From a virus (lineage: Duplodnaviria; Caudoviricetes), in IMG/VR virus record IMGVR_UViG_3300025735_000003, positions 1 to 64,000 of that record: DNA of 64,000 nucleotides, one strand, 5' to 3'. Under the pieces are notes generated by a model that saw nothing but the letters and a program-made list of their open reading frames with translations, was not told where the DNA came from and searched no databases. Positions 906-18,912 of the stretch are shown in pieces. Position 1 is the first letter of the stretch. Every line of letters starts with the position of its first letter. The translations under genes and the position numbers were made by a program.

Positions 906-913
906 GGAGTAAT

Positions 914-1681: not shown

Positions 1682-1690
1682 GGGGCTGGT

Positions 1691-2560
1691 ATGAACACAA
1701 CTAACAATGAAGATTTCATGTTTCCACAATTTAGTATGAACGGGTCTGTACGGGAACGAACTATCCCAACTAAAGTGTACACGCTTTACCTAGATGGTGA
1801 AATTGGAGCACCTTCTGAGTATAGGGATCACATGGAAGCTCTTGAATCTGCAAACGAGTGGGATGAAGTGCGGGTTATAATTTCAAGTGGAGGAGGTCGC
1901 CTAGACAGCGGTCTGATGCTGATTGACGGGATTAAAGCTTGTCGTGCCCCAGTAACGGCGTACATTCACGATATCTGCGGTTCTATGGCGACAGGTGTGG
2001 CCCTTGCGTGTCAAAACTGGCTTCTAGGGGATTTTGCATATTTCTTCGTGCACACAGCAAGCTGGGGAACATTTGGCAAAGACAGCGAAATTCGCAGTCA
2101 TGTGCAATTCATGGATAAACGAATTGATAAATTCCTCCACAGTATGTATGATGGTTTTATGTCTAGCGAAGAAATTTCTTTGGTCGGAAAAGGCCAAGAT
2201 TTGTGGATTGATTCGGAAGAACTGAAAGAGCGGCTGGAAGCTTACCAAGAATACCGGAACAATCAACCCTGTAACTGTGGCGATGAATCTTGCCCTCAGA
2301 ACCAACGATTGGCAGCAGAATCACAAAGGGATGACTTCGAAGATATTGAAGACTTCGATCTTGAAGCTCTTATTGCTGAAAAGGTAGCCGAAGGCATCGC
2401 CCTGCATGAGAAAAAGAAATTAGCTGCTGAGAAAAAGGCTTCCCGCGCAAAGAAACCAAACGCCAAAACCCAAGCTGTGATGGATGCTACAGATAAGGGC
2501 GAGGATTTGATCCACTTTGACAGTAAAGAAGCACTTTTTGAAGCTCTTGATCTAAAATAA
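1691..2560 (+). CDS. ClpP-like serine protease with acidic/basic linker and C-terminal DinJ/RelB-antitoxin-like segment
   Basis: YLDGEIG, ISSGGG, CGSMA (Ser), FVH (His), DLWID; the last 34 aa PNAKTQAVMDATDKGEDLIHFDSKEALFEALDLK match the DinJ C-terminal pattern. Confidence 0.85.
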   Translation: MNTTNNEDFMFPQFSMNGSVRERTIPTKVYTLYLDGEIGAPSEYRDHMEALESANEWDEVRVIISSGGGRLDSGLMLIDGIKACRAPVTAYIHDICGSMATGVALACQNWLLGDFAYFFVHTASWGTFGKDSEIRSHVQFMDKRIDKFLHSMYDGFMSSEEISLVGKGQDLWIDSEELKERLEAYQEYRNNQPCNCGDESCPQNQRLAAESQRDDFEDIEDFDLEALIAEKVAEGIALHEKKKLAAEKKASRAKKPNAKTQAVMDATDKGEDLIHFDSKEALFEALDLK

Positions 2561-2563
2561 TTG

Positions 2564-2601
2564 TTGCAATGAATACGTGGGAGGTTTACAATTACTCCCA
2601 C
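2564..2601 (+). promoter_or_regulatory. sigma70 promoter whose -10 lies in the loop of an inverted repeat
   Basis: TTGCAA (2564-69), 17 bp, TACAAT (2587-92); GTGGGAG 2577-83 / CTCCCAC 2595-2601. Confidence 0.7.
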
Positions 2602-2628
2602 TAACCCAAACATAAAGGAGAGAATATT

Positions 2629-4401
2629 ATGACTGACCAAGAAGAACTAGATATTTTGATGGAAAAGATTGCAGTGATTAAAGAGGAGAACTTTGGAGTA
2701 TGTCCTTCTGGTCAATATATGGATGGGCTTCTTGACAAGATGTGGGAACTCCAAGATAAAATTAAACTGGGAGGAGTAAAGTGATTTCATACGAAGAGAT
2801 TGAAGAGTTGCTCGCAGAACAACAAGCTGACCTTCTTGCTGCACAGGAAAAGTCAGAGAATTCTGAGAAGGAAGAATGAAAGAATTAGATTACGATGAAC
2901 GATATGAGGATTATTTAGCAATCGTTGAACACTGTTTCGATGTTGAGCCGATGTGGCATTGGGAAGTTGATCTAGAATCTAACTGTATTGATTAAGGAGA
3001 ATAAAATGCCACTGTACATGTTAGTTAAAGTAGATTTCGGACACCGTGAGAATATGGGGCTGTTTGATACACAAGCTAAAGCACTTGCATTGCAGACATC
3101 TCTTGAGCTAGAATTGTTTGATAGTGGAAGTTTAGCGGGTATTAGTTTTTATATTGAGGAGTGGTATACGAAGTGAGTATTGAAAAAGAAGTAACCCAAA
3201 AGTTTTATGACCATCTTGTAAAGCCTGAATTGTTTCTGGAAGAGATTTGGTTTGAAGATAAGTATGGAAATGTCCACTGGAATGGTGAAAGCAATATTGA
3301 TGATCTGGTAAATGGTGATGGGGACACATATTCTGGTGATATCCGTACAGAGGTAGTGGAGATAGATGGTTTTGCACTGTACACTTTAGGCAATGATTGT
3401 GGTGGAGAAAGCCAACTTATTTTTAAACTTAGTAATAAAATTAATCCAGAGGATTATGCATGAATCAGTTTGCACAATACGAAAATGAAGTAGAAGAAGA
3501 ACCAACCATTAGCGATTGGATTTCCTCAGACGCTTCAGGTGCTAGCAATATGCTTGGGGAGGATATTTATTCAGCAGTTGTAGAGGCACTTGGTTATGAG
3601 TAAGACTGAAGACCGTGCTAAAGGTTTCATCTTACAATGCATTGAGCAATGTAAACAGATTAAACCCGATCCTCAAATAACTGACTTTCACTGTCAACTT
3701 ATCATTCAGTTGACAGGCAAGGTATTTGAACTAGAGGAACAGATTAGGGAGTTGAAAAATGAGCAACAGCGCTTATAATTGTTTTCTTGATGCAGAACTT
3801 GAAAAGTATTACGAAGAATTAGAGGAACCACTAGACCTATGCTGGGATGATGAACCAGTAATAGAACCCAACACTGATTATGATAATTATGATAACTGGG
3901 ATGATATGCAATGACTGAAGAACCTATTGGTGCTTTGTGTGGTAAAGTAAATAAAATCATTCCTCATACCCCTTACTACTTAGCTGATGGGAATGTTGTT
4001 ATAAAGAAATGGAAAGAATCTTTCGTAGACCGAATGGGCAATAAGGCAGAGCTTATGAAAGTGTTGTTTAGGACGAAGAAGAATAAAGAGAATGTTGCAG
4101 TTATTCAAGTAAATTGGGAGTAGAGAATATGGGTGAGAAGAAAGATCCAAAAGTAACTATTGTAGACTACCAGACATTTACGGATTACCTGTTCAACCCA
4201 CCTTCAACCTTTTACATACAGAACGCTATGGGAGAATATTGGTTTGTGCATACTTCTTCAAGAGTTGCTGCACAAGAATATATAGATTCTGTTTATGGTA
4301 AAAATCGGTATACTGTTGTAGCTAGCAAACTTCAGAAGACAGTTAGTAAATCAGAGAGTGGAGAGTTGTCATGCCGAGGGACAGCAACAAGAAAGAAATA
4401 A
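2629..4401 (+). CDS. Run of about 10 small, mostly acidic hypothetical proteins (e.g. 2629-2784, 2781-2879, 3006-3176, 3173-3463, 3596-3778, 3911-4123, 4129-4401)
   Basis: Tightly packed or overlapping ORFs with AGGAG RBS and ATGA couplings. Confidence 0.7.
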
Positions 4402-4904
4402 TCAACAAAGAATACTCACTCTACATGGACATTGCCCTACGTGCAGCCCAAGACAGCCATGCAGTCAGAAAGAAAGTAGGCTCATGCATTCTAACTAATA
4501 GTCGTGGACTTTACGTTGGTTATAACGGAACACTTCCCGGAATGAGCAACACTTGTGAGGAGAGGATTTACAGTAATGGTGCAGGTGGTTGGATGGATGT
4601 CGAAGAGTTTAAAGAAATCTATCCTTACGAAGATGAGAATGGACATTACAAACTTAAAACTTTGGAAGGTGTAGTCCACTCGGAAATTAATTCGCTATGT
4701 AAGATGCTTAAGGAAGGTGTTAGTGCAGAGGGAGCTACAATCTTCGTAACATTGTCCCCATGTGCAACTTGCAGTTCAATTATTGCTTCTAGTGGGATTA
4801 GAAAGGTTGTATACTATGAGGAATATCGGGATACTAAGGGAATTGAGATGCTAGAAGACTTTGGTGTAGAAGTTGTACAATATGAGAAAGGAGAAAAATC
4901 ATGA
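4371..4904 (+). CDS. dCMP deaminase
   Basis: KKVGS, GYNG, VHSEIN, TLSPCATC Zn motifs. Confidence 0.92.
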   Translation: MPRDSNKKEIINKEYSLYMDIALRAAQDSHAVRKKVGSCILTNSRGLYVGYNGTLPGMSNTCEERIYSNGAGGWMDVEEFKEIYPYEDENGHYKLKTLEGVVHSEINSLCKMLKEGVSAEGATIFVTLSPCATCSSIIASSGIRKVVYYEEYRDTKGIEMLEDFGVEVVQYEKGEKS

Positions 4905-5962
4905 ATAAAGTTACATTATACGGCCTCAACAAAGCTGGAGGCTTTAAGATCTGGGCTATCGAAACAAAAGATGAAGAAATTCATATTGAGTTTGGTCAGG
5001 AGAATGGTAAGATTCAGCTCAAAATTGAATCTGTCAAAGGTAAGAACATTGGACGGAGTAACGAGACGACTCCTGTACAACAAGCTGAGTTGGAAGCTCT
5101 TAGTAAGATTGAGAAACAGAAAGATAAAGGTTATCGGCTGGACAAAGATGATCTACAAGACCTAGATATTCTCCCAATGTTGAGTGCAGATTACACAAAA
5201 CAAGGGCACCGTATTAAATACCCTTGCTGGGGTAGTGACAAGATGGACGGATGCCGTGCTCTGGCTATTTGTGAAAACGGTGCTGTAACTTTGAAGTCCC
5301 GAGGTGGTAAACTGTACGATGTAAAACATCTGCAAGGTCAGCTTGCCGCTGTTATGAAAGATGGTGAAGTGTGGGATGGTGAGTTGTTCATCAAAGGTAA
5401 GTATCTTGAAGAGATTGTTTCTGCTATCAAGAAGCCTAATCCACTGACACCTTATCTTGGATTTGTTATATTTGATATTGTGAATACTGAAGAATTTAGT
5501 TCCCGTATTGATACAATCAGAGCTATTCCTAAACGTTTGTTGGGTACTCAGATACAGGTTATTGAGTATCTTAACATTGAGTCTGAACAAGAGATGAAAG
5601 TTAAACACAGAGACTGTGTTGCTCGTGGTTTTGAAGGTTTGATGCTTCGCAATGGTAAGGGTGTCTATGAGTCTGGTAAACGTTCGGCAGACAGCCAGAA
5701 ATTCAAGACTTTCTTTGACTCAGAATTTAAGATTATTGATGTAATATCAGATAAAGATGGTGGTGCAATCTTTGTAGTTGCGAATACCTTTGCCGACAAT
5801 CAATTCAACGTTGTAGGTGGCTCACATGATCAACGTAAACAATGGTTGGCTGATAAAGACTCTCTGATTGGTAAATTCATTACTGTAAAATATCAAACCA
5901 CTTATAAAGACACTCAGATTCCACAATTCCCAACGTTCGTTACGTTTCGAGATTATGAATAA
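4901..5962 (+). CDS. ATP-dependent DNA ligase
   Basis: KMDGCR adenylation motif, DGELF, FDI, EGLMLR, K.K..FDSEF, P+FP terminus. Confidence 0.93.
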   Translation: MNKVTLYGLNKAGGFKIWAIETKDEEIHIEFGQENGKIQLKIESVKGKNIGRSNETTPVQQAELEALSKIEKQKDKGYRLDKDDLQDLDILPMLSADYTKQGHRIKYPCWGSDKMDGCRALAICENGAVTLKSRGGKLYDVKHLQGQLAAVMKDGEVWDGELFIKGKYLEEIVSAIKKPNPLTPYLGFVIFDIVNTEEFSSRIDTIRAIPKRLLGTQIQVIEYLNIESEQEMKVKHRDCVARGFEGLMLRNGKGVYESGKRSADSQKFKTFFDSEFKIIDVISDKDGGAIFVVANTFADNQFNVVGGSHDQRKQWLADKDSLIGKFITVKYQTTYKDTQIPQFPTFVTFRDYE

Positions 5963-5972
5963 GGAGAACAAA

Positions 5973-6401
5973 ATGCATAGCAATGAATCGAGCTGGAATC
6001 CCGACGAAATAGTAGATACTAAATCTCTACAACTATTCACTCTTCGTGAATTTATGAAGTGTCTTAACTACGACTTTGTTGAAGGAACTCTCTGGTCCAA
6101 CCCATTCTTTCACTCATCTCATCATTCTAATAAAGGTCGTAACATTATTGGCTTTGTTGGAGCCCTAAAGCTTTATAACGGGAATAGTGTGAAGTGTGTA
6201 TTCGGTAAGCCACCAGAAAAACTCAGCTTGTGGTCATTTAATGATTACCAAATTGCTAAAGCTAAGGCAGCACGTATCCTTGTCAGACTGAAGCTGCAAC
6301 TGTGTAAGTCTACCAAAACTATTCTGGTTCAGGATCACCGAGTGGAATTTACATTGAAAAGTTACTCTAAACTCTTTCTTTCGAACAAATATCTGGGGTG
6401 A
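5973..6401 (+). CDS. Hypothetical protein
   Basis: ORF with AAGGAG RBS before ATG 5973. Confidence 0.7.
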   Translation: MHSNESSWNPDEIVDTKSLQLFTLREFMKCLNYDFVEGTLWSNPFFHSSHHSNKGRNIIGFVGALKLYNGNSVKCVFGKPPEKLSLWSFNDYQIAKAKAARILVRLKLQLCKSTKTILVQDHRVEFTLKSYSKLFLSNKYLG

Positions 6402-6404
6402 TCC

Positions 6405-6590
6405 ATGAACCACGACAGGGTTTGTTTATTCAAAGATGGCTCTTGGTGCTGGAATTATGAGTTCAGTTTTAAGGAGTTTGGACACAAAGGGGAGTATCAA
6501 GAGATTATTTTAGGCCAAGGGTGGCTAGACAGAGACGTTTCAATCATGCTGGCCGAATATTATAGTGAAAACACCCATCTTTTTGATTAA
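6405..6590 (+). CDS. Hypothetical protein
   Basis: 61-aa ORF in operon, ends just before terminator. Confidence 0.65.
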   Translation: MNHDRVCLFKDGSWCWNYEFSFKEFGHKGEYQEIILGQGWLDRDVSIMLAEYYSENTHLFD

Positions 6591-6594
6591 TTCT

Positions 6595-6635
6595 AAGCCT
6601 CCAGTCTTGACGGACTGGAGGCTTTCTGGTCTAAT
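6595..6635 (+). terminator. Intrinsic terminator fused to sigma70 promoter (-35 is the hairpin loop)
   Basis: AAGCCTCCAGTC-TTGACG-GACTGGAGGCTT-TC; TTGACG, 17 bp, TCTAAT with TG extension. Confidence 0.8.
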
Positions 6636-6658
6636 GGGTTTACTAATCAGGAGGAACT

Positions 6659-7678
6659 ATGGAACAAGATAAACTGAAGAAACAATTGGAGCTGCTTCAT
6701 TCAGACTTGAAGCGCTGCAATAACAGGTGTAATCGTATTTCTAAAGCAATCGGCATTGAACAGAACGATTTAATTCAGTACGCAATGGACGAGACACAAG
6801 CTGTGCTGGATTATATTAGGATGTTGAAGGAGAAAGAAAATGCTAGTCAAACAGAGAATCAAGTGGGAATATGAATACCACTTTGGAAAAGAACCTTGGT
6901 TTCCAGCATTCTTAGATTACAAGAAGAATAGGGGTTCTGAAAGATTCAGACTGAACGCTGCTATGGAAGAGTTTTTCGAATATGTTATTTCATTAGAGGA
7001 AAAGCTAAAATGACACAAGAACAATACTATCTCCTAGAGAGGTTACGTACAAACCTCCTAGATGCAGCATCTGAGCTAGAACTTCTAGGAAAGCTTCCAA
7101 GGTTTGTGCAGAATATTGATTGGATGCTAGACGAGCTTGATGAGTATGTTAAATTGCAAAAGGAGTTGGATGATGAGTAATAGTGATAAATGGTTATTTG
7201 GGTTTATTACCCTGTGGATTATACTGTGTGCCGGTAAGCCTGACTTGATTGATGCACTGACTATACGTGTAATGGGTGATCAAGCTGTTTATGAAAAGAT
7301 GAAAGGAGAGAAAGAATGATCCACCTAGCGCCAATGACTGACGAACAACGCCAAGCTGTCAAAGACCAACGTATTGCTGACCAAGAATACGCACGAGAAA
7401 ACGTAACCTTAGATCGACCAGACGAACCTTACTGGAAAGCTCTTGCCTCCGAACAGGGTATCCGCATGCCACAGTGGCACATCTTAGGTACAGAGATTAA
7501 ATATATTCGAAGGGCTTGTAAAAAGTTAGGTGTTGATGTAAAAGAGTACACAGATTCTACGGGCTTTAAAACACTGAAAGAATTTGCCGAAACTAACCAT
7601 AAATTCAATGCTGTTGCTCAAGTCGGTCTTGTGCTAGAATACTGGGTAGATAAAGAGGGTAATTGCGGGATTAAATAG
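6659..7678 (+). CDS. Cluster of small hypothetical proteins (6659-6874, two unlisted ~55-aa ORFs, a small membrane ORF, 7316-7678)
   Basis: RBS-led, ATGA-coupled ORFs. Confidence 0.7.
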
Positions 7679-7689
7679 GGTAAGTTGGT

Positions 7690-7713
7690 GTAGTTTTACC
7701 CTATTAAAACTAC
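7690..7713. promoter_or_regulatory. Perfect 9-bp inverted repeat, operator-like
   Basis: GTAGTTTTA-CCCTAT-TAAAACTAC in an intergenic gap. Confidence 0.4.
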
Positions 7714-7757
7714 GATCTATTTAATTTCAATGACGGTACATGTGAAGAGGTGGTGCC

Positions 7758-7928
7758 ATGTTCTTTATAGTTTATTTAGCCATTAGTTTAGTAATGTTTT
7801 ACCACGAAGTATTAGATTCATACAGATGTAAAGTTAAGATTGATTTCGTAAGGAGCATATCCTTCTCTCTTTTGTGGGTTGTAAGTATTCCTTTCTCCAC
7901 TTATATGATGTGGAAGGAGCTGAAATGA
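7758..7928 (+). CDS. Small two-TM membrane protein (56 aa, not in ORF track)
   Basis: GAGGTGG RBS; MFFIVYLAISLVMFY...SFSLLWVVSIPF; ATGA overlap with next gene. Confidence 0.65.
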   Translation: MFFIVYLAISLVMFYHEVLDSYRCKVKIDFVRSISFSLLWVVSIPFSTYMMWKELK

Positions 7929-8107
7929 CAAAAGAATATTCCCATGACAGAGAAGTGATCAAAGACTTCATCCGCTACATCTCGGATGAGCATAAATGTG
8001 CAGTGGTGTGTTTTCCAGATGAATTTGCAGCTAACAGTTATGTAAATTACAGGTTTATTAATGTTTCAGATATCTTGGAAGAGTTTATTGAGGGGAGAAA
8101 GCAATGA
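7925..8107 (+). CDS. Hypothetical protein (true start likely 7925)
   Basis: AAGGAG RBS; coupled to phaZ by ATGA overlap. Confidence 0.65.
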   Translation: MTKEYSHDREVIKDFIRYISDEHKCAVVCFPDEFAANSYVNYRFINVSDILEEFIEGRKQ

Positions 8108-8940
8108 ACATTCAAATGCAAAACCAAACAATCATGTTGGGGAATCAATCAATCTACGTTTCGATTAAACCGGGGAAGGTTGGGAGTATTCCTCTTCTGA
8201 TTATGAATGGTATTGGAGCGAATACAACTTTACTGACTCCGTTTGTTGAAGCTATGCACGAATCAAATCCTGATCTTGAGATTATTACTTTTGATGTGCC
8301 GGGGTGTGGAGGATCTTCTACTCCTTCGCTGCCATACAGGTTTAGTGGACTATCTAAGATTGTTTCGCATATGTTGGACTATTTGAACTACGCGCAAGTG
8401 GATCTACTGGGTCTATCGTGGGGCGGATTCTTAGCCCAACAGTTTGCTTATGATTACCCTCAACGCTGTAAGAAACTAATTCTATGCGCTACAGCAACAG
8501 GAGTTACAAGTATACCACCTAGTATGAAAGTACTTTCTTTAATGTCTTCACCTAGACGCTACACTGATTCAGCCTATATGATTGAGATTGCCCCCCTAAT
8601 ATACGGTGGAAAATTCCGAACAGACCCTCAGATAGCAATTAAGTATGCTGAGAAGATGGAGGCTAATAGCTCTGAAAATAAAGCTAGTGCCACTGGGTAC
8701 AAGTTTCAACAGCTAGCAATATGTTGGTGGAGTAGCTTGTGGATGCTTCCTTACATCAAACAACCTACACTTTTGATAGGAGGTAGCGATGACCCGATCA
8801 TACCTCTAGTGAATATGAAGATTATGAAAGGACTTATTCCTAATTCAAAGCTTCATACAGTGGATGATGGGCACCTTTTCCTCCTCTGCTCAACTGATGT
8901 AGTAACACCAATTATTAATGAGTTTTTGGAGGGTAAATGA
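8104..8940 (+). CDS. phaZ: Intracellular medium-chain-length poly(3-hydroxyalkanoate) depolymerase (alpha/beta hydrolase)
   Basis: PLLIMNGIGAN, FDVPG.GGSSTP.LPYRF.GL, lipase box GLSWG, AQQFA.DYP.RCKKL, SPRRY, AP.IYGG.FR.DP, DDPIIPLVNM, DDGHLFL: collinear with Pseudomonas PhaZ as recalled. Confidence 0.92.
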   Translation: MNIQMQNQTIMLGNQSIYVSIKPGKVGSIPLLIMNGIGANTTLLTPFVEAMHESNPDLEIITFDVPGCGGSSTPSLPYRFSGLSKIVSHMLDYLNYAQVDLLGLSWGGFLAQQFAYDYPQRCKKLILCATATGVTSIPPSMKVLSLMSSPRRYTDSAYMIEIAPLIYGGKFRTDPQIAIKYAEKMEANSSENKASATGYKFQQLAICWWSSLWMLPYIKQPTLLIGGSDDPIIPLVNMKIMKGLIPNSKLHTVDDGHLFLLCSTDVVTPIINEFLEGK

Positions 8941-10496
8941 ATAATATTGTAAGTATTGAAGTAGAAATCAAACGAGAGCCTGAATATCCCGTATATTGCT
9001 TTGATATGTGGATGTTGTTTGATAATCAGAATGCTTATTTGGATTGGTCAGACAGTTTGGATAGGGTATGATTGAAATCCTTGGCTATGGGTTTGCTATT
9101 ATAATGTATTTCTTATTCTGTTACTTCATGATATTTAAAACGAGGTTGTGATGACAAGCCCTGAACGCTGCTCATGTGGAACTAGAGAGAAGAATAAGTG
9201 TAATAAAGAATCCACACCTATTGATGGTGTAAGGTATGGTAAAATGTGCGTAAAGGAAGTGAAAGAGGAGAGTAAGAAGGATGTTTGAATTAGATTACCA
9301 ACTACCACCAGAGTATAAAAGCTTAGAGTATCTGCACACAAAACTTGGTGATGTACAGGTTGTGGAGTGTGTTTGTATCATCTGGAATGCCATGCACAAA
9401 GGGAATACACTCCGTGTAAAGAGTGCAGATGATAAGACAGGAATTATTATGATAACTGGTGTTTGTGATGACACACGAGAGGTTATTAAGATTGGTAAGT
9501 GGCTAACTACGTTTGCTTTGGTGCAGATTAGGTATGAGAGGACTATTTTTAGTGTGGAGATTTGAATGGACCAAACAATTGAAGACAGAATGCAGGCTGT
9601 AGAGATTGAGTTGAAAGAGATTAGGAAAGAATTGGAGGGGAGTCTGGCGAGGTATAGTCCACATTACCCAGACGAGAACAGACTGATCAACGATCGTGAA
9701 TATTGCAGTCGGTGGATTAGAGGTGAGATTAAAGCAAGTTCTGAGTGGTTCATGAAGGAGATTTATAAATGAAAGCATATCAAGTGGTGTTGGTTGATGG
9801 TGATGGAGCTAGCTTTGAAGAGTTCGTAACTCCTAAAGTGTTTATGGATAAGGTAAAGGCTGAAGCTTACAAACAGTTCTTTATTGACGAGGATGCTGGT
9901 TGGTGGAAAGTGTATGTTAAGGAAGTGGAGTTGGTAGAATGAAACCAATAATCCTTAAAACACCAGAAGGGCTATATGTCTATGAAATCCCTATTGAGAA
10001 TGAACCAGAAGATGGGGCATCTGACGAGGTTTGGTGGAGATGGGGATAGCTACTACGTAGCGATAGCAGCTTGTGGGGTTGGTAGTAGTCCTGTAGAGGC
10101 TTATAATAATTGGGTGAAGGATTGGGAGGATAATGTGTGATGAAAGTTAGTACGTTGGCTTGCCTATGCTTTGGTGCATGGATCAGTTTAATGTGGACAA
10201 ACGGATAAGATAAAAGAGTTGTCTGCTAAAGTTCAAGTACTGGAATCAATTAATAAGGAGAAGATGTGATGAGTGATTTCAAAAGCTGGTGCGAAGTAGC
10301 TGAATATCTATTAGCTAACAAATGGAACTCTGTAGATGTAGATAGCACATGGTCATTCACAGAGGATAAGAGTTGGAGTAAGGTATATCCTCCTGAAGAT
10401 GCCAGTGACTATGAGCACTATAAGAATATTGGAGATGCGATAGAAGAGATGAAGTATTTCTGTGATGGTGACTTAGGGAGTGTTAGTAGAGAATGA
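8937..10496 (+). CDS. Cluster of small hypothetical proteins (incl. 9281-9565, 9566-9772, 9770-9942, 10266-10496; two look frameshifted)
   Basis: Packed ORFs with RBS; see findings. Confidence 0.6.
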
Positions 10497-10705
10497 ACCT
10501 TAAACCAGAAGACTTAGAAATCAGCACATACCCACCCTATAAAACTGGTGGACAACATGTTGGGCTTACTCACAGCGGTGTGCTGATTGCGCATATTCCT
10601 ACGGGGCTTGGTGTTGTGTCCGTTAGTGAGAGGAGTCAGTATAGGAATAAAGAGAGGGCTTTGACAATGTTGGAAATATTGGTTGAATTGGAGGAAGATG
10701 AATGA
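10493..10705 (+). CDS. Stand-alone peptide chain release factor GGQ domain (RF-1 domain, 70 aa)
   Basis: LKPEDLEISTY...GGQHV...SGVLIAHIPTGLGV.S.SERSQYRNKERALTML follows the RF1/RF2 domain-3 pattern (DLRIDT..GGQHVN..SAVRITHLPTG....QDERSQHKNK..A...L). Confidence 0.85.
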   Translation: MNLKPEDLEISTYPPYKTGGQHVGLTHSGVLIAHIPTGLGVVSVSERSQYRNKERALTMLEILVELEEDE

Positions 10706-10807
10706 GTTTTGTAATATTTACACTTGGTATTGTCGTGGTGTCTTACCCTTTCTTTGGGGCCATTGTTTATGGTGATCCGTGGACTTGGATCTTTAAGGAG
10801 AAGAAAG

Positions 10808-11008
10808 ATGTTTGAACCAAGAGCACCACTAACACAAGAAGAGATAAACCAACTGTTGTCCTCTGTACAACTAAGGTCAACACCAGAAGATCCTTGTGCT
10901 AAATATCCTGAATTGCTCAAGATGAAAGGCCGATACCGTGTTCAGTTTGGAGAGGACCAACTATACAGAGATTATAAACTTGTACAACAAAGGTTGAGAA
11001 ACGAATGA
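10808..11008 (+). CDS. Hypothetical protein
   Basis: RBS before ATG 10808; ATGA-coupled to the next gene. Confidence 0.6.
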   Translation: MFEPRAPLTQEEINQLLSSVQLRSTPEDPCAKYPELLKMKGRYRVQFGEDQLYRDYKLVQQRLRNE

Positions 11009-11556
11009 GTGTAAAGACATTAGAAACCAGACACGAAGGCTTAACAGTCTTCGATACTGAAACAGGAGAGCTTCTATACCACAAGAAACCTAAACCTGTG
11101 AAGATGGGAAGCTTTGATAAGTATGTAGGGATTGATACCAAATATCCACAAGACTGTGTAACCAAAGACAGCTTGCTTGAGTGTCTATCTGTTTTGGATG
11201 GGTACATCAATGATAAACCATACCTTACGTCTCACAATCTGCTAGATGCTTTGAATCAGAATCTACTTACTCCACAAGAGCTGAAGTTGATTACACATAT
11301 AGTTAATAACCTAACAGGTTGGAATATCTACATTGGCACAGTAAAGGACTTATGCACTTGTGGGATTACAGAAGCAAACATCTCTCGTTTGATTAAGGGA
11401 TTAGATCCTAATGTACTGAGAGTGAAGCACAGGAACAAGCCATTCAGAGGAGATATAGTCATTGAAGTCAGTCCTACATATGGTTGGAAAGGAGATATTA
11501 GATATCGAGAAATGAAGATTGGTAGTTGGTATGGAGCTAGTTTAACGCTTGATTAG
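11005..11556 (+). CDS. Winged-helix protein resembling the RepL-type replication protein family
   Basis: FDTETGEL N-terminal motif; ELKLITHIVNN...KDL..CGITEANISRLIKGL HTH; V(S)PTYGWKG. Confidence 0.5.
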   Translation: MSVKTLETRHEGLTVFDTETGELLYHKKPKPVKMGSFDKYVGIDTKYPQDCVTKDSLLECLSVLDGYINDKPYLTSHNLLDALNQNLLTPQELKLITHIVNNLTGWNIYIGTVKDLCTCGITEANISRLIKGLDPNVLRVKHRNKPFRGDIVIEVSPTYGWKGDIRYREMKIGSWYGASLTLD

Positions 11557-11671
11557 AATGAGTTGACAAACGAACTCATCATTGGTGATGAATTGATGTA
11601 CCTGTAAGTCCCTATTTCTGGGGCTGTTTGCATCTACCCTACTTATTAATATACATGTGAGAGAAATATCT

Positions 11672-11893
11672 ATGGGATTATTTAATGTAAATCTGGAAGA
11701 GACCTACTGTGAAGGGTTTAATCAGGACAGCACTGAACAACCTTGAGCTGTATGAACCTTACTGTAGTAAAGGACCAAGAGAAGGCGAGTTCAAGGATTC
11801 GATAGGGCAAACACCACCGATTATCTGGTTAAGGATTTTGCAATGAAGTATCTAAGAGATGCATTGGAAATATTGGAACGTGAAGGAGAGTAA
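11672..11893 (+). pseudogene. Probable ~73-aa gene broken by two compensating single-base indels
   Basis: RBS+ATG 11672; protein-like segments in two frames joined at an A-run (~11690) and a G-run (~11806); ends TAA 11893 before terminator. Confidence 0.35.
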
Positions 11894-11931
11894 GTTCTTG
11901 GAAGTTTAACCTTCACAACCCCCTGTAAATT

Positions 11932-11966
11932 AGGAGTCAGCTTGTGTTAGTGACTCCTTTTCTTTT
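11932..11966 (+). terminator. Intrinsic terminator ending the left + operon
   Basis: AGGAGTCA...TGACTCCT followed by TTTCTTTT. Confidence 0.75.
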
Positions 11967-12700
11967 GTCTGGAAAATATAGCAAAGCCTTTGTTTATAAG
12001 GGTCTAGTTCAAAATTCCTTGGATATCTATCTGAAGGGCTTAACGCTCTTGGCCGGCACCTGTCAAATAGCATGCCAAATAATAAAATATTAGAGAATTC
12101 TATCAGATAACTCTTCCCAATACACCTTACCTATACTCTATTAGCAGTTCTAACCTGATAGTAACAATCAACTAACAGCAAGCTCTGTGCCAAGTCACTC
12201 ATCGATAGTTATTACTCATCACTAGGCGTTACCATAATTCACATTGCGTATAATCTGCCTTCCGTAACATGTTACCTCATACACACTGACTATCAATCAC
12301 CTGTCGTGTACCTCTGATCACTCATACCGACCACTGTATGTCAACCATAGTAATACGTACTGACGTACCCCTACACAACTAGCACACTTCACTAGCTTAA
12401 GTCAATGTATTATGTTACTGAGCAGCATAAGATGTGTAGTACTGATTAGTTATACAGTACTGTACGTGGATACAGATGCAAACTTGGGGATCTTTGCTAC
12501 CGTGCTTGACAAATGAGGACTTATTATCACATGAATAAGTGATTAAAAACTACACTAGGCAGTGTATCTTAAGGGGCTTGCAGACTATGATTAACATAGC
12601 TTACACTTGATTGGTAGGCATTTAGAAGGTAGTTGTAATCACAAAGGTATGGATAAGACTAAGCCGTGCATTGCACGGCTATAATTTTCCTGCTTATTAT
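11967..12700. other. Non-coding convergence region; candidate terminal repeat, packaging end or origin
   Basis: No credible ORF; G-poor + strand; 12-bp palindromes; GTAC cluster. Confidence 0.5.
12662..12680. terminator. Hairpin at end of the minus-strand early unit
   Basis: AGCCGTGCA-T-TGCACGGCT, 20 bp after the HNH stop. Confidence 0.55.
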
Positions 12701-13309
12701 TTAAGAGTGGTAATTCTCATACTTATCAATCAAAGCTTTAGCTACACGCTCATCTGTCTGCTCAGCCGCTAGGATGTAGGCTTGTTCTAGTTTAAATGTA
12801 AGCCATGCTTGATGAGCTTCTTCTGGTGTATCATAACAGCCAAGATTCTTATTTTCACCGGTGATTACATCCCTACACCTAGCAAACAGCCTTTTAGCCA
12901 ATTTGTGATAAGTTACTCCAATGGGCCAATCTCCTCGCGTAGTGTCACGAATAAATGTGTTCACTTTTGGTGTAATAAAAACACAGGTGTTTGGACCATA
13001 GACCTTGTTATTGGGTACTAGCAGATCCTTATCTATCTGCTTTCCTTCCCAATCTTGCTGTTCCATCCAAGATTTAAACTTGCTGAAGGTTAGCCACTCA
13101 TGTGCTACTGAACAACCTACGTAAGATGGAGATTTTTCTTGTACCTTTTCTGAGTAGCACCGTGAAAGCATATCCCGCCAACGAGCATAGAAAGGGCAGA
13201 CTATCAGTACTTTCTTACCATCTTCAAGTGTAACATGTTTACCGACATTATAGTCGGCATCATTTATACCAACACCTATCACTAGTTTCTCTCTATAATT
13301 CAATTTCAT
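12701..13309 (-). CDS. HNH-type homing endonuclease (family B)
   Basis: VIGVGINDADY, CPFY..W..ML.RCYS, WL.FS.FK.WM, IDKDLL..NKVY.P.TC.F; paralogue of 22636 and 49123. Confidence 0.8.
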   Translation of the reverse strand: MKLNYREKLVIGVGINDADYNVGKHVTLEDGKKVLIVCPFYARWRDMLSRCYSEKVQEKSPSYVGCSVAHEWLTFSKFKSWMEQQDWEGKQIDKDLLVPNNKVYGPNTCVFITPKVNTFIRDTTRGDWPIGVTYHKLAKRLFARCRDVITGENKNLGCYDTPEEAHQAWLTFKLEQAYILAAEQTDERVAKALIDKYENYHS

Positions 13310-13332
13310 TTACTTCTCCTTCAATAGATAAA

Positions 13333-13350
13333 ACTCACAGTCAAGTGAGT
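13333..13350 (-). terminator. Hairpin with TTGACT loop just upstream of the HNH RBS
   Basis: Minus strand ACTCAC-TTGACT-GTGAGT-TTT. Confidence 0.5.
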
Positions 13351-13988
13351 AAGTTTTGTTGCTCTGTTTTACGTCATTTAAAACTGTTTCAAGATAGACC
13401 GCACACTAGACACATCATCAATAAGAGAATGTAGCTTCTCAACAGCCTCCCACTCAGAGTAAGCGCAAACAAGAATCCACAAGTGGCCTTTGCAGTAGTT
13501 GGTATCGTAGTTCATGATATACATTTTGTTTTACTCTGCTAGGTTTGTATGGTTAGATTATATATTTGTTTTAAAGACAGAGAAACAATTATTTTCACTC
13601 AACAACACAATTAATTTCCCAATCCACAGCTTCCCCATCCATATGCTCTTCTTTGAAGTTATTCATGTATTCCCGATACGCTTCTTCTACTGGCTTAGAC
13701 ATCAAGAATTTACGTTCTTCTTGAAGACGTTCAATGCAGTCTGAGCGTGTGAGGTTATGGTCTACAATATATTCTTCACAAGTGAGCACTGAGCAGAAGG
13801 CAATCGAAAGGAGCATAGACATGATATTACTTCCAGTATTGAACAGTGAAAGAGTCAGCATTATTCTTAGTGAAGTAGGCTTTGTAGCCTTCACCTTTCA
13901 ACTCGGCTACCAATTCGATTGCTTGAGCTTCTGTGTAGCGTTCGATGTAGCTCATGATGTTTACTCTCCTGTTTGTTTGGTATGGCTT

Positions 13989-14017
13989 ATTATGGGGCTA
14001 CCCACCACACCAGTCAA
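13989..14017 (-). promoter_or_regulatory. sigma70 promoter
   Basis: TTGACT, 17 bp, CATAAT. Confidence 0.75.
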
Positions 14018-14057
14018 CAAGTATTTTAAGATTTATTCATTTAAAGATTCTATTGAT

Positions 14058-14384
14058 TCAGTCTCCTTGATTCATATCATCATAAGCTGTGTAAGCTTGT
14101 CTCTTGCTCCAAACATCGTCAGCAGTGTGCTCAGACAAGGTGTTTTCAATTGTCTCCCATATACTAAACCCTTGATTCAACCAATAGAGTTTATTAGTCT
14201 TTCTATCAAGCTTATAGCTTCCAAGATCAGGACAGAACGCATATGGTGATCGTTGTACAAACCAGACTGTATTGTCTTCTATGTAAACACATTCAATAAC
14301 AATTGATTCATAGTAGTCGGCTTGAAGTTTGTATTTGGTGCCCTCTGTGTAGGTCATTTCAAACCTCTTTATCAAACCAACCAA
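14058..14384 (-). CDS. Hypothetical protein
   Basis: ORF in early cluster. Confidence 0.6.
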   Translation of the reverse strand: MVGLIKRFEMTYTEGTKYKLQADYYESIVIECVYIEDNTVWFVQRSPYAFCPDLGSYKLDRKTNKLYWLNQGFSIWETIENTLSEHTADDVWSKRQAYTAYDDMNQGD

Positions 14385-15517
14385 GACTAATAGCCATTTG
14401 TAGAGACTTTATCAGGTTCTCTGCATCCTCTTTACTACAGATTGCTATACAGATATCCTCTAGGTGGTCGTCAATCCATACAGGGTTCTCTTTGTTGTTC
14501 CTTGTGTGCAAGATCTTGGTTGCATCTCCTTGCCCTTTGTTATCAGCAAAGATAATCTCTGTTGGGCTTACCACTACAGTTCTAATGTCAATTTCCATCA
14601 CTCTTGCCCCCAATTCCGCTTAAGATTTCTCTCAGTGCTGTAGCCTCGTTTCTTGTCTTTACCACCTGTGTCATACTGGTCTGCACACTTGCGCTTAGAA
14701 GATTTGCGTTCATATTTCTGGAATGATTCTTGTGTGTAGTTGTTCATGCTTCTGATTCCTTAATACGTTTATCAATCTCGTTATCAATCTTCACCGACTC
14801 AAATTCACTTGGTTCAGACCAGTCAGGGTGATCTTCTGGCAAGTCTTCAACAGAAAGCCTGTCCCTAAGCCACAAATAACGGATTGCATGTAAAGCAACG
14901 TCAGAGTACATATCCTCTACATCATCAAAAGTAACTCCCAACTCAAGCAAAATCGCATCACGTTTTGCAATCTCAAGCTTAAGGCTTTCTACTTCATTGT
15001 TCATTTCAACATCTCCAATTCAATCATCTGTTTTGTACTATACATTAACAATCACATTCCACAAGCCTAGCTCACGAAACACTTTGAAGCTTGTGTGACC
15101 TTGTGCTACTAGGTCTTCTACGGTGATCAAGGCTGCGCTTAGGGTGATGTGTTGAGTATTCATAGGTCATCATCCAATAGGTTATAAGTATCAACCAACT
15201 CTGTGTATTCTAGACGCATAAGGCAGTCATCGACATTACAGAGATAGCCGTCTACATGAGAGCATCCAAAGTCTTTATACAAGATACAACACTTAACCGG
15301 ATCATCCATTACACTACTCTCCACTTAAAGAGTAAACTGCAATTGATACAAAGCTGAACCGTCTTCTGCATAACCTAACAGTATAGGCTCCTTAGCATCT
15401 GCAATTCGTTCTCTCCACTTAGCTTCTTCAATATCTCTATACCACTTATCTTTGTGCTGTGGAAAGAACGCTAAATCAATTAGTTCTTCTTCCGTCACAA
15501 CAATTACATTACCCATC

Positions 15518-16138
15518 TCACACCTCTTTCAACGTTTGGTAGTAGGCTTTTGCCCTTTGACTAAATTGTACAAGCTTTATGGTGATAGTGCAAGCGATCT
15601 GTAAAATCTTTTTAAAACTATTTGTGCGGGGAAGATCATCTATCCAGCTCACTCCACAAGGTGTGGCTACCTCTGTGTGGGTGTAGTCTACATCAGGGTT
15701 TGAGTAGGGTAAAACTGCCTCAACTTCCTCATATTCTACCTCTGTTTTCATAGGCTTCGCAGAGATTGCTTTCTTATACAAAACTTCTGCACGTTGAAGC
15801 TTAGCGAAAGCTACATCCCTATAGACGCTGTACTCTTCCAAGCTAAACTCACCAGCACGATAGGCTGTCTCAAGCTCAAGGATTTCTGAGCGGAGTTTTT
15901 CTAGTCTGACGGCTTGAGGGAGAATCCTTTGTTTGAGTGGTACTTTAGTTGGAGTCTTACCCATACGAGCAGCAATAGCAGAGTCGCTAAAGGCATTTAC
16001 GTTTGCTTTACCGTAGATGTCGTACAAGGGTATGGCTTCAACAGATCGAACATTACGTGAACCGCACTGATTTCCATCGTAGTCAGGCTCATTTTCGTGG
16101 GAGCCTACCCAAGTTTGTAAAGCGAAATAACGACTCAT
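15518..16138 (-). CDS. Hypothetical protein, first gene after a strong promoter
   Basis: 206-aa ORF, AGGTAGG RBS. Confidence 0.8.
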   Translation of the reverse strand: MSRYFALQTWVGSHENEPDYDGNQCGSRNVRSVEAIPLYDIYGKANVNAFSDSAIAARMGKTPTKVPLKQRILPQAVRLEKLRSEILELETAYRAGEFSLEEYSVYRDVAFAKLQRAEVLYKKAISAKPMKTEVEYEEVEAVLPYSNPDVDYTHTEVATPCGVSWIDDLPRTNSFKKILQIACTITIKLVQFSQRAKAYYQTLKEV

Positions 16139-16177
16139 TGAATACCTACCTTTAAGCTTTTCTGTTTTGATGTCCTC

Positions 16178-16215
16178 ATATTACAGACAAACAAAAAGAG
16201 CGTCAAGCGCTCTTT
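16178..16215 (-). promoter_or_regulatory. Terminator/promoter hybrid
   Basis: AAAGAGCG-CTTGA-CGCTCTTT-TT; TTGACG, 17 bp, TAATAT. Confidence 0.8.
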
Positions 16216-16683
16216 AGAATTATTTCTTAATAAAATAAGCTTTCTCGCCTCTGGGGTATTTCCATCCCGGATAGGTATAGCCCCACACATTCCTGCTCTT
16301 ATCACACCAGACACTATAATTCTCACTCTCTGACACACTTGGCATGATGTCTCTTTTGTCAGCATAGAGAGCCTCAAAGAATTGCTCCCTAGTTACCTCT
16401 TTCATGTCGTTAGGCGTTACGATAGCCATTTGCAGCCTCCTCGATGTCTTCAACTTCCATCACAACTTGTCCCATTGCAGCTTCTTCGCTGATGTCACGA
16501 GCATAACGTTTGTAAGTGCTCATCATATCTTCGACTGCAAATTTGGCAGCGATCATTGCACCACGTTCATCACCGTTCATGTGGTGTTTGTAGCAAACCA
16601 GTCGAGCTTCGTAAAGGCGTTTGAAGAGTTCTGGTAGGTTGTTCATGTCATCACCTGTTGAGTTGTTTTGCTTCAGTCAGGTC

Positions 16684-16712
16684 ATTATGCAACAGGTAGG
16701 ACGTGTGTGCAA
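16684..16712 (-). promoter_or_regulatory. sigma70 promoter
   Basis: TTGCAC, 17 bp, CATAAT. Confidence 0.65.
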
Positions 16713-16715
16713 GCT

Positions 16716-16892
16716 TTATTTGCCACTTTTCCGGGCAATCTCACGTAAAAGCTGAAGCTCTTCCTCACGCATACGCTGATCAGCTTTCTTCCTCTGATTG
16801 CCTGCACTCACAGCACAGATTATCCACAGAAGTGCAAACGGTGGAAAAAGGATTGTAAGGATTAGGAAAACCACATGACTTAGACCGCTCAC
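16716..16892 (-). CDS. Small membrane protein (58 aa, not in ORF track)
   Basis: GTG start; MSGLSHVVFLILTILFPPFALLWIICAVSAG then a charged helix. Confidence 0.65.
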   Translation of the reverse strand: MSGLSHVVFLILTILFPPFALLWIICAVSAGNQRKKADQRMREEELQLLREIARKSGK

Positions 16893-17509
16893 GATGCATC
16901 CTCCAACTCATACTTAAAATAAACAGTCCAAGCTTCTGGCCCACTAGCCCGGAACATATGAACACCCGTCTCAGTCTTCTGAGAAATCTCACCATGAGCG
17001 TTCATACTGAAGTCGTATTCCCGACTAGCTTTGAACGCTACCCTTGCATCTTTATTCATCACAACATCACGTATGCATTTAAGTTTCATCATATCACCTC
17101 AATCATTTCAATTATATACCAATTCTGTAGCCACTTGCCCATACCATCATCAAAAAGTATAGTGGCTGTTTCATTGCCCTCGCCTACATTGTTAAATGTA
17201 ATCTCCTTAACCTCACAAGCTGATTTGAACTTGCTACCACCTACATGAACAAATACTTTGTCACCGGGTTGGAGTTGGCCTATGAGCTTTTTGATGATCA
17301 CACCCCAAACCGGTTAGTCAACATGCGATCACGAGTGGCATTGCTTGCCGAAGCACCGTAGTGAGTCTTGGAAGACAGGGCTGCATAAGCGGCTACAGCT
17401 TGTTCGTTAGAAAGGATGCCAGCTTTGAGGGCTGCTTCTACACGGGCTTTGAGTTGGGACATGTTCATGGCTGTTGCTCCTGTTCGTTTGTTTTGCTTCG
17501 TTAAGGGTA

Positions 17510-17538
17510 AGTTTATAGCTGATCCCACACCTTGTCAA
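17510..17538 (-). promoter_or_regulatory. sigma70 promoter embedded in the 3' end of the HNH gene
   Basis: TTGACA, 17 bp, TAAACT; leader and AGGAG RBS lead to ATG at ~17468. Confidence 0.65.
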
Positions 17539-18028
17539 CCCAATGTCCATTTTCTTTTTCAGCCGTCATTCGGGCAAAGATTGCGTCTTCCTTGTGTGTG
17601 AATTTCCCAAGCCCCACCACCCTACCATCTAAATAGATATAAGCTTGCCACTTAGATTCATTCTTGTTCCAAGACACTCCCGCATAGCCGGACGTGTTGT
17701 TCTTGTGAATAGACCGATTTCTCCCGTTAACCTCCTTAGTCACATCTCGGAGGTTGTCCCATTTATTGTTATCTCTAATTGTGTCTTTGTGGTCAACGTT
17801 GCCTACTGGAAAAGATCCAGTCATGTAAAGAAAAGCAAGCCTGTGGGCCATATACGTTTTATTATCAAGGCCAATACTAATGTACCCACCCGAGTTCTTG
17901 GCTGTAACTACGCTCCCTACCTTACCCGTGCCGCGACCTTTGAGACGTGTAAATAGTCCGGTTTCAGGGTCATAGTGATAGCGATTCTTTAGCTTAATGC
18001 TCAATTGCAACAACTCATCTTCAGTCAT
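17513..18028 (-). CDS. HNH_3-type homing endonuclease with AP2-like domain
   Basis: YDPETGLF, YMAHRLAFLY, VDHKD..R.NN.WDNLR, NTSGYAGV.W. Confidence 0.88.
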   Translation of the reverse strand: MTEDELLQLSIKLKNRYHYDPETGLFTRLKGRGTGKVGSVVTAKNSGGYISIGLDNKTYMAHRLAFLYMTGSFPVGNVDHKDTIRDNNKWDNLRDVTKEVNGRNRSIHKNNTSGYAGVSWNKNESKWQAYIYLDGRVVGLGKFTHKEDAIFARMTAEKENGHWVDKVWDQL

Positions 18029-18049
18029 TTATTTTCTCCACACAGTACA

Positions 18050-18069
18050 AGCCCCTCACTTGAGGGGCT
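18050..18069. terminator. Hairpin immediately upstream of the HNH gene
   Basis: AGCCCCTCA-CT-TGAGGGGCT. Confidence 0.6.
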
Positions 18070-18883: not shown

Positions 18884-18912
18884 ATTGTAAGAGATGGCTT
18901 ACGTCCTGTCAA
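18884..18912 (-). promoter_or_regulatory. sigma70 promoter
   Basis: TTGACA, 17 bp, TACAAT. Confidence 0.8.

What the first reader, a model, noticed from the sequence alone, without database searches (positions are those of the whole stretch)
10493..10705. 70-aa stand-alone GGQ release-factor domain
Seen: the ORF reproduces only the catalytic domain 3 of class I release factors (GGQHV, HIPTG, ERSQYRNK). It has no codon-recognition domain, and its tail is acidic (ELEEDE). Knowledge: ArfB/YaeJ needs a basic C-terminal tail to sense the empty mRNA channel, and PrmC methylates the GGQ glutamine. Inference: this is either a minimal peptidyl-tRNA hydrolase that needs a partner or a damaged ribosome, a host-translation saboteur causing premature release, or a decoy for PrmC or ribosome-targeting defences.
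Basis: partly seen in the sequence, partly recalled or inferred. Interest (0 to 1): 0.78.

Follow-up and report, generated by a model that had tools for sequence, protein, structure and literature searches.

The report
Phage bare release-factor GGQ domain
A complete uncultured phage genome carries a well-conserved 70-residue gene that copies only the peptide-releasing (GGQ) domain of bacterial release factors; it belongs to a large, catalogued but unstudied phage family that probably docks in the ribosome's catalytic centre, and its function is untested.

Summary
Its AlphaFold model (pLDDT 89.9) is exactly domain 3 of RF1/RF2: three strands, the GGQ loop and one helix. It is not RF1, RF2, PrfH or ArfB; all fall far below their family cut-offs, and there is no basic tail (net charge -5).

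It is not a stray fragment. dN/dS is 0.09-0.25 among close copies on 87-93 kb phage genomes. At least 120 related small phage proteins exist (PHROGs 35727 and 20323; 118 phage records, some labelled "peptide chain release factor 1"). I found no paper on them.

The family keeps the two glycines, H-x-P-T-G and (E)RSQxxN. It has lost four cellular-invariant residues and the positive charge. The Gln is replaced repeatedly, mostly by Met: GGQ in 98 of 121 members against 103 of 103 cellular RFs. Longer relatives add an EF-Ts/L12-like module. No neighbouring gene is conserved.

Best reading (about 0.4): a GGQ module that docks at the peptidyl-transferase centre, catalytically competent here, releasing peptides from ribosomes with a long-vacant A site and needing help to dock. 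A non-catalytic binder is the main rival. A PrmC decoy is less likely.

This scan has met the family before on other DNA (57 notes, at least 54 genomes).

The parts
10493..10705 (+). 70-aa stand-alone GGQ (RF-1, domain 3) protein; GGQ at residues 19-21 (codons at 10547-10555)
   Evidence: ORF; Pfam RF-1 57.3 bits; PHROG 35727 E 3e-19 and PHROG 20323 E 1e-10; model pLDDT 89.9; fold match to RF1/RF2 domain 3; dN/dS 0.09-0.25
10266..10496 (+). Upstream 76-aa ORF of unknown function, translationally coupled (ATGA overlap); the only neighbour shared with some relatives
   Evidence: ORF. 93% identical ORF upstream of the homologue in L010 and 81% in L012, but absent from L011, L013 and L014. No PHROG, Pfam or PADLOC hit
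10702..11556 (+). Three downstream translationally coupled ORFs (37-aa hydrophobic, 10702-10815; 66-aa, 10808-11008; 183-aa, 11005-11556); no link to the GGQ gene beyond adjacency
   Evidence: ORFs and overlaps. None has a counterpart next to the homologue in any related locus. No PHROG or Pfam hits

Best explanation
The gene encodes a functional, phage-specific bare version of the release-factor peptidyl-hydrolase domain. It most likely inserts its GGQ loop into the A-site side of the peptidyl-transferase centre of the host large ribosomal subunit. Because this member keeps an intact Gly-Gly-Gln, it can probably hydrolyse peptidyl-tRNA there without reading a codon. It has no decoding domain and no mRNA-channel tail, so its affinity should be low. 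It would then act only where the A site stays empty for a long time: ribosomes stalled by mRNA or tRNA damage or depletion during infection, or split 50S subunits still holding peptidyl-tRNA. Alternatively a host factor may bring it in. The benefit to the phage would be recycling of blocked ribosomes. SHOWN: the ORF, its fold, purifying selection, family membership, the conservation pattern, the lack of a tail and the lack of a conserved neighbour. INFERRED: ribosome docking, catalysis, the choice of substrate and the benefit.
For: The protein is the complete domain-3 fold and nothing else. Selection is purifying: dN/dS 0.09-0.25 in six close copies, and the 70-aa length is kept in about 30 close relatives on 88-94 kb contigs. 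Across 32 diverse family members at 39-69% identity, the invariant or near-invariant positions are G19, G20, G29, H34, P36, R47, S48, Q49, N52 and A56. Most of these, except G29, are also conserved in cellular release factors. The two glycines matter because they take glycine-only torsion angles in the peptidyl-transferase centre, and mutating either abolishes release (PMC5799190). Keeping them therefore points to the same docking site. Gln is kept in this clade. The usual replacement elsewhere is Met. By my inference, Met could imitate the hydrophobic packing of N5-methyl-Gln on U2506/A2451/A2452 (PMC5799190). Longer relatives fuse the same core to a module resembling the EF-Tu-binding N-domain of EF-Ts and helices 4-5 of L7/L12 (Pfam E down to 5e-8; fold match). 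This ties the family to the translation machinery and shows that an anchor is added in some lineages.
Against: ArfB stops binding the ribosome when 10 C-terminal residues are removed (PMC8012679), so a bare GGQ domain is not expected to bind a 70S ribosome alone. The mini-family has lost the positive charge of cellular domain 3: core +2.8 to -0.6, and helix end +2.1 to -1.7. It has also lost four cellular-invariant residues (R14, N24, R31, Q44 in query numbering), and both changes argue against strong rRNA binding. Catalysis is not needed family-wide: 23 of 121 members lack GGQ, against 0 of 103 cellular RFs (p = 3.8e-7). Close relatives with CGQ, AGQ or a stop codon at the first Gly exist. 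No conserved partner gene is adjacent. There is no experimental evidence at all.
Confidence: 0.4

Rival explanations
1. It is a non-catalytic binder. The domain is kept for its shape and acts as a plug or mimic that binds the A-site/peptidyl-transferase region, or a protein that normally recognises release-factor domain 3. It would tune termination, rescue or elongation without cutting peptidyl-tRNA; the GGQ in this clade would be ancestral baggage or serve only for fit.
For: The catalytic Gln is dispensable in the family: GGM in 14 members and other triplets in 9 of 121, needing at least 2 and by parsimony about 9 independent Q/M changes. A Vibrio phage homologue has no GGQ at all. Close relatives have CGQ or AGQ. 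The best-conserved block is H-x-P-T-G plus ERSQxxN, not the Gln. The loss of positive charge suggests a partner other than rRNA. Earlier notes of this scan report RRW-loop variants in Acinetobacter phages (not checked here).
Against: In this clade GGQ is kept in 28 of 31 aligned relatives under purifying selection. The second Gly is invariant and the first about 92% conserved family-wide; that is expected if the loop must take its conformation in the peptidyl-transferase centre. By my recollection of the release-factor literature, Gln substitutions other than Pro keep substantial hydrolysis in vitro, so GGM does not prove a loss of catalysis.
Confidence: 0.27
2. It is a host-translation saboteur. 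Expressed in quantity, the codon-independent GGQ domain causes premature peptide release on host ribosomes and helps shut the host off.
For: The GGQ is intact and there is no codon-recognition domain to restrict it. The gene lies in a block of small accessory genes of the kind that often holds host-takeover functions.
Against: It could not tell host from phage messages, so phage translation would suffer too. Low expected affinity and competition with abundant ternary complex make release on actively elongating ribosomes unlikely. Nonsense and deletion alleles occur in otherwise intact relatives, which suits an accessory helper better than a core shut-off function.
Confidence: 0.1
3. It is a decoy or inhibitor of PrmC. 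The free GGQ loop occupies the host glutamine methyltransferase and so lowers methylation of RF1 and RF2.
For: PrmC recognises the GGQ domain (complex 2B3T; the model aligns to chain B with rmsd 2.5 A over 64 columns). A Met at the acceptor position could in principle act as a dead-end occupant.
Against: Members without any GG(Q/M) motif exist. Four residues invariant in cellular RFs near the loop, and the basic charge, are lost. No benefit to a phage from weaker termination is evident. No binding prediction could be run.
Confidence: 0.07
4. It is a decaying remnant of a captured host prfA or prfB fragment with no function.
For: Broken alleles exist: an in-frame TGA in L012 and an internal deletion in P0035.
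Against: dN/dS is 0.09-0.25. Length and start are conserved across many genomes. The family has its own conserved signature ([YW]PP before GGQ, and HVG rather than HVN) across about 120 diverse members and many viral clusters.
Confidence: 0.03

Closest known systems
Domain 3 (GGQ / peptidyl-hydrolase domain, Pfam RF-1 PF00472) of bacterial class I release factors RF1 and RF2
   Same: Same fold over all 70 residues (query-normalised TM-score 0.70-0.79), about 41-45% identity, and the same GGQ, H-x-P-T-G and ERSQxxNK motifs.
   Different: Lacks domains 1, 2 and 4, so there is no stop-codon reading and no switch loop. Has lost the cellular-invariant R14, N24, R31 and Q44 and the positive charge. 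Carries its own [YW]-P-P signature before GGQ.
ArfB (YaeJ) and mitochondrial ICT1: codon-independent rescue hydrolases
   Same: A GGQ domain without a codon-recognition domain; codon-independent action is the expected mode.
   Different: ArfB needs a linker and a basic C-terminal helix in the mRNA channel, and loses ribosome binding without it (PMC8012679). The phage protein ends in an acidic helix, has no linker or tail, and scores only 14 bits on the ArfB model against a cut-off of 100. In sequence it is nearer to RF1/RF2 than to ArfB.
MTRFR (C12orf65) with MTRES1 on split mitoribosomal large subunits, and PrfH with RtcB2 on damaged ribosomes
   Same: GGQ-domain proteins that act on special ribosome states, with a partner or a damage signal in place of a stop codon. 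Both appear among the fold matches (7a5h, 2rsm, 7sa4, 9mor).
   Different: Both are larger and keep extra ribosome-binding parts (PrfH model 45 bits against a cut-off of 167). No partner gene is conserved next to the phage gene.
PHROG families 35727 and 20323 ('RF-1 domain peptide chain release factor') and GenBank phage genes labelled 'peptide chain release factor 1' (Otagovirus phiPsa374 group, VCM, Boevelstad)
   Same: Same family: E 3e-19 and 1e-10; 47-59% identity to Pseudomonas phage proteins.
   Different: These are database clusters and automatic labels only; no functional study was found. Otagovirus members are 131-159 aa, carry GGM rather than GGQ, and add an EF-Ts/L12-like module with or without a Cys-rich tail. 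This gene is the bare GGQ form.

Membership tests
Pfam RF-1 domain (PF00472; bacterial release-factor peptidyl-hydrolase fold) | Score above the curated gathering cut-off | tested here: met
   57.3 bits against a cut-off of 35, E 1.9e-15
Pfam RF-1 domain (PF00472; bacterial release-factor peptidyl-hydrolase fold) | Three-stranded sheet, GGQ loop and long helix, as in RF1/RF2 domain 3 | tested here: met
   Model pLDDT 89.9; query-normalised TM-score 0.70-0.79 to RF1/RF2 domain 3
Pfam RF-1 domain (PF00472; bacterial release-factor peptidyl-hydrolase fold) | Gly-Gly-Gln catalytic motif | tested here: met
   GGQ at residues 19-21; kept in most of the close clade
Class I release factors RF1/RF2 (TIGR00019, TIGR00020) | Full-length match including codon-recognition domains 2/4 and domain 1 | tested here: not met
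   58 bits against 423 and 54.6 against 370; only model positions about 218-289 are matched
ArfB / YaeJ (NF006718) | Family model score | tested here: not met
   14.2 bits against a cut-off of 100
ArfB / YaeJ (NF006718) | Flexible linker plus basic C-terminal helix that enters the empty mRNA channel | tested here: not met
   The protein ends at residue 70 within the domain helix; tail ELEEDE; net charge -5
PrfH (TIGR03072) | Family model score, and pairing with RtcB2 | tested here: not met
   45 bits against a cut-off of 166.65; the adjacent ORFs have no PHROG or Pfam hit
Phage stand-alone mini RF-1 family (PHROG 35727 / 20323) | Profile match over the whole short protein | tested here: met
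   E 3.1e-19 (residues 3-69) and 1.2e-10 (residues 3-64)
Phage stand-alone mini RF-1 family (PHROG 35727 / 20323) | Family signature [YW]-P-P-x3-4-GG(Q/M)-H-V-G, H-x-P-T-G, (E)RSQxxN...A; 65-90 aa; viral context | tested here: met
   Alignments A1 and A2; contexts on phage contigs; nearest Atlas clusters are viral
Peptidyl-tRNA hydrolase activity on the ribosome | GGQ-dependent release of peptide from P-site peptidyl-tRNA | not testable with these tools
   Needs biochemistry
PrmC substrate | Binding to PrmC and N5-methylation of the GGQ Gln | not testable with these tools

The most novel reading that the evidence does not exclude
Phages carry a family of minimal trans-acting GGQ modules that reach the peptidyl-transferase centre without any decoding or mRNA-channel sensor. 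They would select their targets kinetically (a long-vacant A site or a split 50S), or ride on EF-Tu in the longer relatives. This would be a new, partner-free or EF-Tu-borne route of ribosome rescue that phages use to keep ribosomes available when host defences or host-mRNA decay stall translation. The recurrent Gln-to-Met change would be a built-in substitute for PrmC methylation.
Probability: 0.2. Interest if true: 0.85.

Novelty: new variant of a known kind. Interest (0 to 1): 0.6.

Why it matters
Every characterised GGQ hydrolase (RF1/2, ArfB/ICT1, PrfH, MTRFR) pairs the catalytic domain with a sensor that tells it which ribosome to act on. A conserved, widespread phage protein consisting of the catalytic domain alone raises a clear question: how is the smallest release module targeted, or is the domain used for something other than catalysis? 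The natural series in this family reads like a ready-made mutational experiment on the release-factor active site: GGQ, GGM, no motif, with or without an EF-Tu-binding-type module. If it rescues ribosomes, it would add translation-stall repair to the list of phage counter-measures against RNA-targeting defences. If it is a non-catalytic mimic, it would be a small natural ligand of the peptidyl-transferase centre or of a release-factor partner. Either way it is cheap to test, being 70 residues and soluble-looking, with standard release assays available.

Tried and rejected
3. Megablast of the locus against isolated phages: no match.
4. Looked for a split-off partner. There is no L7/L12-like domain (PF00542) anywhere in the 85.6 kb genome. 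tblastn with the extensions of the longer relatives, and a motif scan for the Cys-rich tail, found only chance hits.
5. Looked for a conserved neighbouring gene. The neighbourhood is mosaic even among copies 87-94% identical. Divergent members sit in unrelated contexts: an array of small early-type genes in one case, and between large genes next to a lysis cassette in another.
6. Neighbouring ORFs against PHROGs, Pfam and PADLOC: no hits. The GGQ protein itself has no PADLOC hit.
7. Recoding idea. Stop-codon use in the genome is ordinary (TGA 69, TAA 63, TAG 20), and there is no tRNA or suppressor tRNA. A role in switching the genetic code is therefore not supported.
8. The profile-based locus search failed because the alignment was too divergent. 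The single-protein search gave six loci.
9. Literature: seven searches found no paper on stand-alone phage GGQ domains. Burroughs and Aravind 2019 (PMC6514570) never mention phages. Mizuno et al. 2019 (PMC6375957) describe phage bL12 domains but not the fusion to an RF domain.
10. The tree of the family is poorly resolved (67 columns), so the number of independent Gln/Met switches is only bounded: at least 2, about 9 by parsimony.

Full report
**1. What is there.**
window:10493-10705 (+) is an ATG-started ORF of 70 codons. Its start overlaps the stop of an upstream 76-aa ORF (ATGA), and its stop overlaps the start of a 37-aa ORF (ATGA). Two further coupled ORFs follow, up to 11556. The window is the first 64 kb of a complete 85,606-bp virus record with 127-bp direct terminal repeats. 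That record is 40.6% G+C, has no tRNA genes, and has no second RF-1 domain.

**2. It is a real release-factor domain 3, and only that.**
- Pfam RF-1 scores 57.3 bits against a cut-off of 35, E 1.9e-15, covering profile positions 6-69 of 116.
- The full-length models fall far below their cut-offs: prfA 58 against 423, prfB 54.6 against 370, prfH 45 against 167, ArfB 14 against 100.
- The best solved relatives are residues about 190-290 of RF1 and RF2.
- An AlphaFold2 model built on 32 family sequences is confident (pLDDT 89.9). It shows strand 8-12, a long loop 13-29 carrying GGQ, strands 30-34 and 39-43, and one helix 49-69.
- Foldseek aligns 62-72 columns to domain 3 of RF1, RF2 and mtRF1a, with query-normalised TM-score 0.70-0.79.
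- Net charge is -5, with an acidic helix end.

**3. It is a maintained gene of a large phage family.**
- The indexed protein search found 33 relatives at 55-96% identity. Nearly all are about 70 aa, and several lie on 88-94 kb contigs.
- Five close viral loci were fetched. Pairwise dN/dS for the gene is 0.09-0.25 at dS 0.29-0.63.
- The exhaustive HMMER search gave 4,174 hits, mostly cellular RFs. Of the best 150, 60 lack the cellular signature, and many of those are 65-90 aa proteins that begin and end with the domain.
- A profile of 32 diverse members (A2, 39-69% identity to the query) retrieved 92 small proteins.
- PHROGs already holds the family: phrog_35727 at E 3e-19, and phrog_20323 'RF-1 domain peptide chain release factor' at E 1e-10.
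- 118 phage records hold a homologue, 42 of them Pseudomonas phages. Some are annotated 'peptide chain release factor 1'.
- In the ESM Atlas, 27 of the 30 nearest clusters carry PF00472. The top ones are 70-81 aa and viral.
- I found no paper that studies these proteins.

This scan has met the family before: 57 notes in at least 54 genomes, including Met and RRW variants. I treat those as leads only.

**4. What the family keeps and what it has lost.**
Positions are in query numbering.
- Kept: G20, H34, N52 and A56 are invariant. P14, G19, G29, P36, R47, S48 and Q49 are conserved at 90% or more.
- Lost: I compared 91 mini-family cores with 87 cellular domain-3 segments drawn from the same searches. 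The mini-family has lost four residues that are near-invariant in cellular factors: R14 becomes P, N24 becomes G, and R31 and Q44 become variable.
- Changed: A29 becomes G, and a [YW]-P-P signature appears before GGQ.
- Charge: the mean core charge falls from +2.8 to -0.6, and the helix end from +2.1 to -1.7.
- The catalytic triplet is relaxed: GGQ in 98 of 121 members, GGM in 14, others in 9. All 103 cellular-type hits keep GGQ (Fisher p = 3.8e-7).
- On a poorly resolved tree, the Q/M state needs about 9 changes by parsimony and at least 2 on well-supported branches. One of those is a GGQ member nested in the GGM Otagovirus-type clade. Gln to Met needs two or three base changes (CAA here), so the recurrence looks selected.
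- A Vibrio phage homologue has no GGQ at all.
- In the query's own clade GGQ is the rule. The exceptions are CGQ, AGQ and GGM, an in-frame TGA at the first Gly in L012, an allele also seen as a truncated gene call (P0037) from another sample, and an internally deleted allele (P0035).

**5. Context.**
- The neighbourhood is mosaic. The upstream 76-aa ORF is shared by two of the five close loci, and the three downstream ORFs by none.
- Divergent members sit in quite different places.
- The neighbours have no PHROG, Pfam or PADLOC hits.
- Hence there is no evidence for an adjacent phage-encoded partner.
- The host is not established. The DNA polymerase is at most 45% identical to that of isolated phages of Edwardsiella and Acinetobacter. 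The nearest homologues of the GGQ protein itself are in Pseudomonas phages, at no more than 59% identity.

**6. Fusions in relatives.**
- Otagovirus-type homologues (131-178 aa) join a GGM core through a disordered linker to a segment that hits Pfam Ribosomal_L12 helices 4-5, with E from 3e-5 to 5e-8.
- In a model of the L015 protein this segment is a confident three-helix unit (residues 91-127).
- Its structural matches are UBA-like domains, with Z about 6-7, which is middling. Those with the highest sequence identity are the EF-Tu-binding N-terminal domain of EF-Ts: 1aip 34% identity at rmsd 1.3 A, 7vmx 30%, 1efu 26%.
- Many of these relatives also end in a Cys-rich CxCGGD...RxGCxN[WY] motif, and one other member carries a phage zinc finger.
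- The query phage has none of these modules anywhere in its genome.
- The fusions tie the family to the translation apparatus. They also suggest that an anchor is supplied in some lineages.

**7. Mechanism.**
Established knowledge bearing on this:
- The two glycines take glycine-only torsion angles in the peptidyl-transferase centre, and mutating either abolishes release.
- The N5-methyl group packs on U2506, A2451 and A2452 (PMC5799190).
- ArfB without its last 10 residues no longer binds ribosomes (PMC8012679).

The near-universal retention of the glycine pair and of the residues shared by all bacterial release-factor hydrolase domains is best explained by docking at the same site on the 50S subunit. 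With GGQ intact, this member is probably able to hydrolyse peptidyl-tRNA.

The missing anchor, the lost charge and the lost Arg/Asn/Gln residues mean that docking must be weak or assisted. I therefore favour action on ribosomes whose A site stays empty, on split 50S-peptidyl-tRNA, or delivery by a host factor (0.4).

The main rival is a non-catalytic mimic (0.27), which the family-wide relaxation at the Gln supports. A saboteur (0.1), a PrmC decoy (0.07) and a decaying remnant (0.03) are less likely, for the reasons given in their entries. No step of the mechanism is demonstrated.

**8. Verdict.**
The gene is a new member of a catalogued but unstudied phage family, and that family is a new architectural variant of the release-factor hydrolase domain. 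Interest is moderate to high (0.6), because the question is clear and easy to test.

Noticed in passing
L012:4001-4213 (IMG/VR contig of 89,919 bp); also P0037 and P0035: A close relative (87% identical) has an in-frame TGA exactly at the first Gly codon of GGQ (ACT TGA GGG CAA), with the rest of the frame intact and conserved. P0037 is the C-terminal gene call of the same allele from another sample. P0035 is an internally deleted allele. This is either recent loss of an accessory gene or read-through; it is unresolved.
   Followed up: partly
L015:3998-4387, L002:3001-3396, L003:2498-2977; P0073, P0079, P0098, P0130: Otagovirus-type homologues (phiPsa374 group, VCM) have GGM in place of GGQ. 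They add a UBA-like three-helix module resembling the EF-Ts N-terminal domain and L7/L12 helices 4-5 (an EF-Tu-binding type), often followed by a Cys-rich CxCGGD...RxGCxN[WY] tail. I found no paper describing this fusion.
   Followed up: partly
L004:2501-2845 (Vibrio phage K412): A 114-aa homologue annotated 'RF-1 domain peptide chain release factor' has no GGQ at all (HNLGNWSMQ in its place) but keeps H-x-P-T-G and the xKSQxxNK helix.
   Followed up: no
window:11557-12700: About 1.1 kb with no ORF of 50 aa or more on either strand, lying between the end of the + strand gene block and a minus-strand HNH endonuclease gene. A strong terminator-like hairpin sits at 12662-12680 (+). There is no Rfam match in 1-20000.
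   Followed up: partly
window:12701-13309 (-): A 202-aa HNH-type homing endonuclease (phrog_953, E 2e-84) sits alone on the minus strand beside the gap.
   Followed up: no
window:8104-8940 (+): The PhaZ-like alpha/beta hydrolase (phrog_789 esterase/lipase, E 1e-27) is shared at about 90% identity by only two of the five close relative loci (L010, L011). It is therefore another mobile accessory gene in this mosaic arm.
   Followed up: no
L006:1601-1813 (Logan contig of 9.2 kb): A divergent 70-aa GGQ family member (P0040) sits between 532-, 863- and 518-aa genes, just upstream of a lysozyme and holin cassette. This late-gene context is unlike the early-type small-gene arrays seen elsewhere.
   Followed up: no
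P0038 (726 aa): A 726-aa protein matched residues 25-49 of the query in eight separate stretches. It looks like a repeat protein built from the strand-turn-strand segment, or a low-complexity artefact.
   Followed up: no
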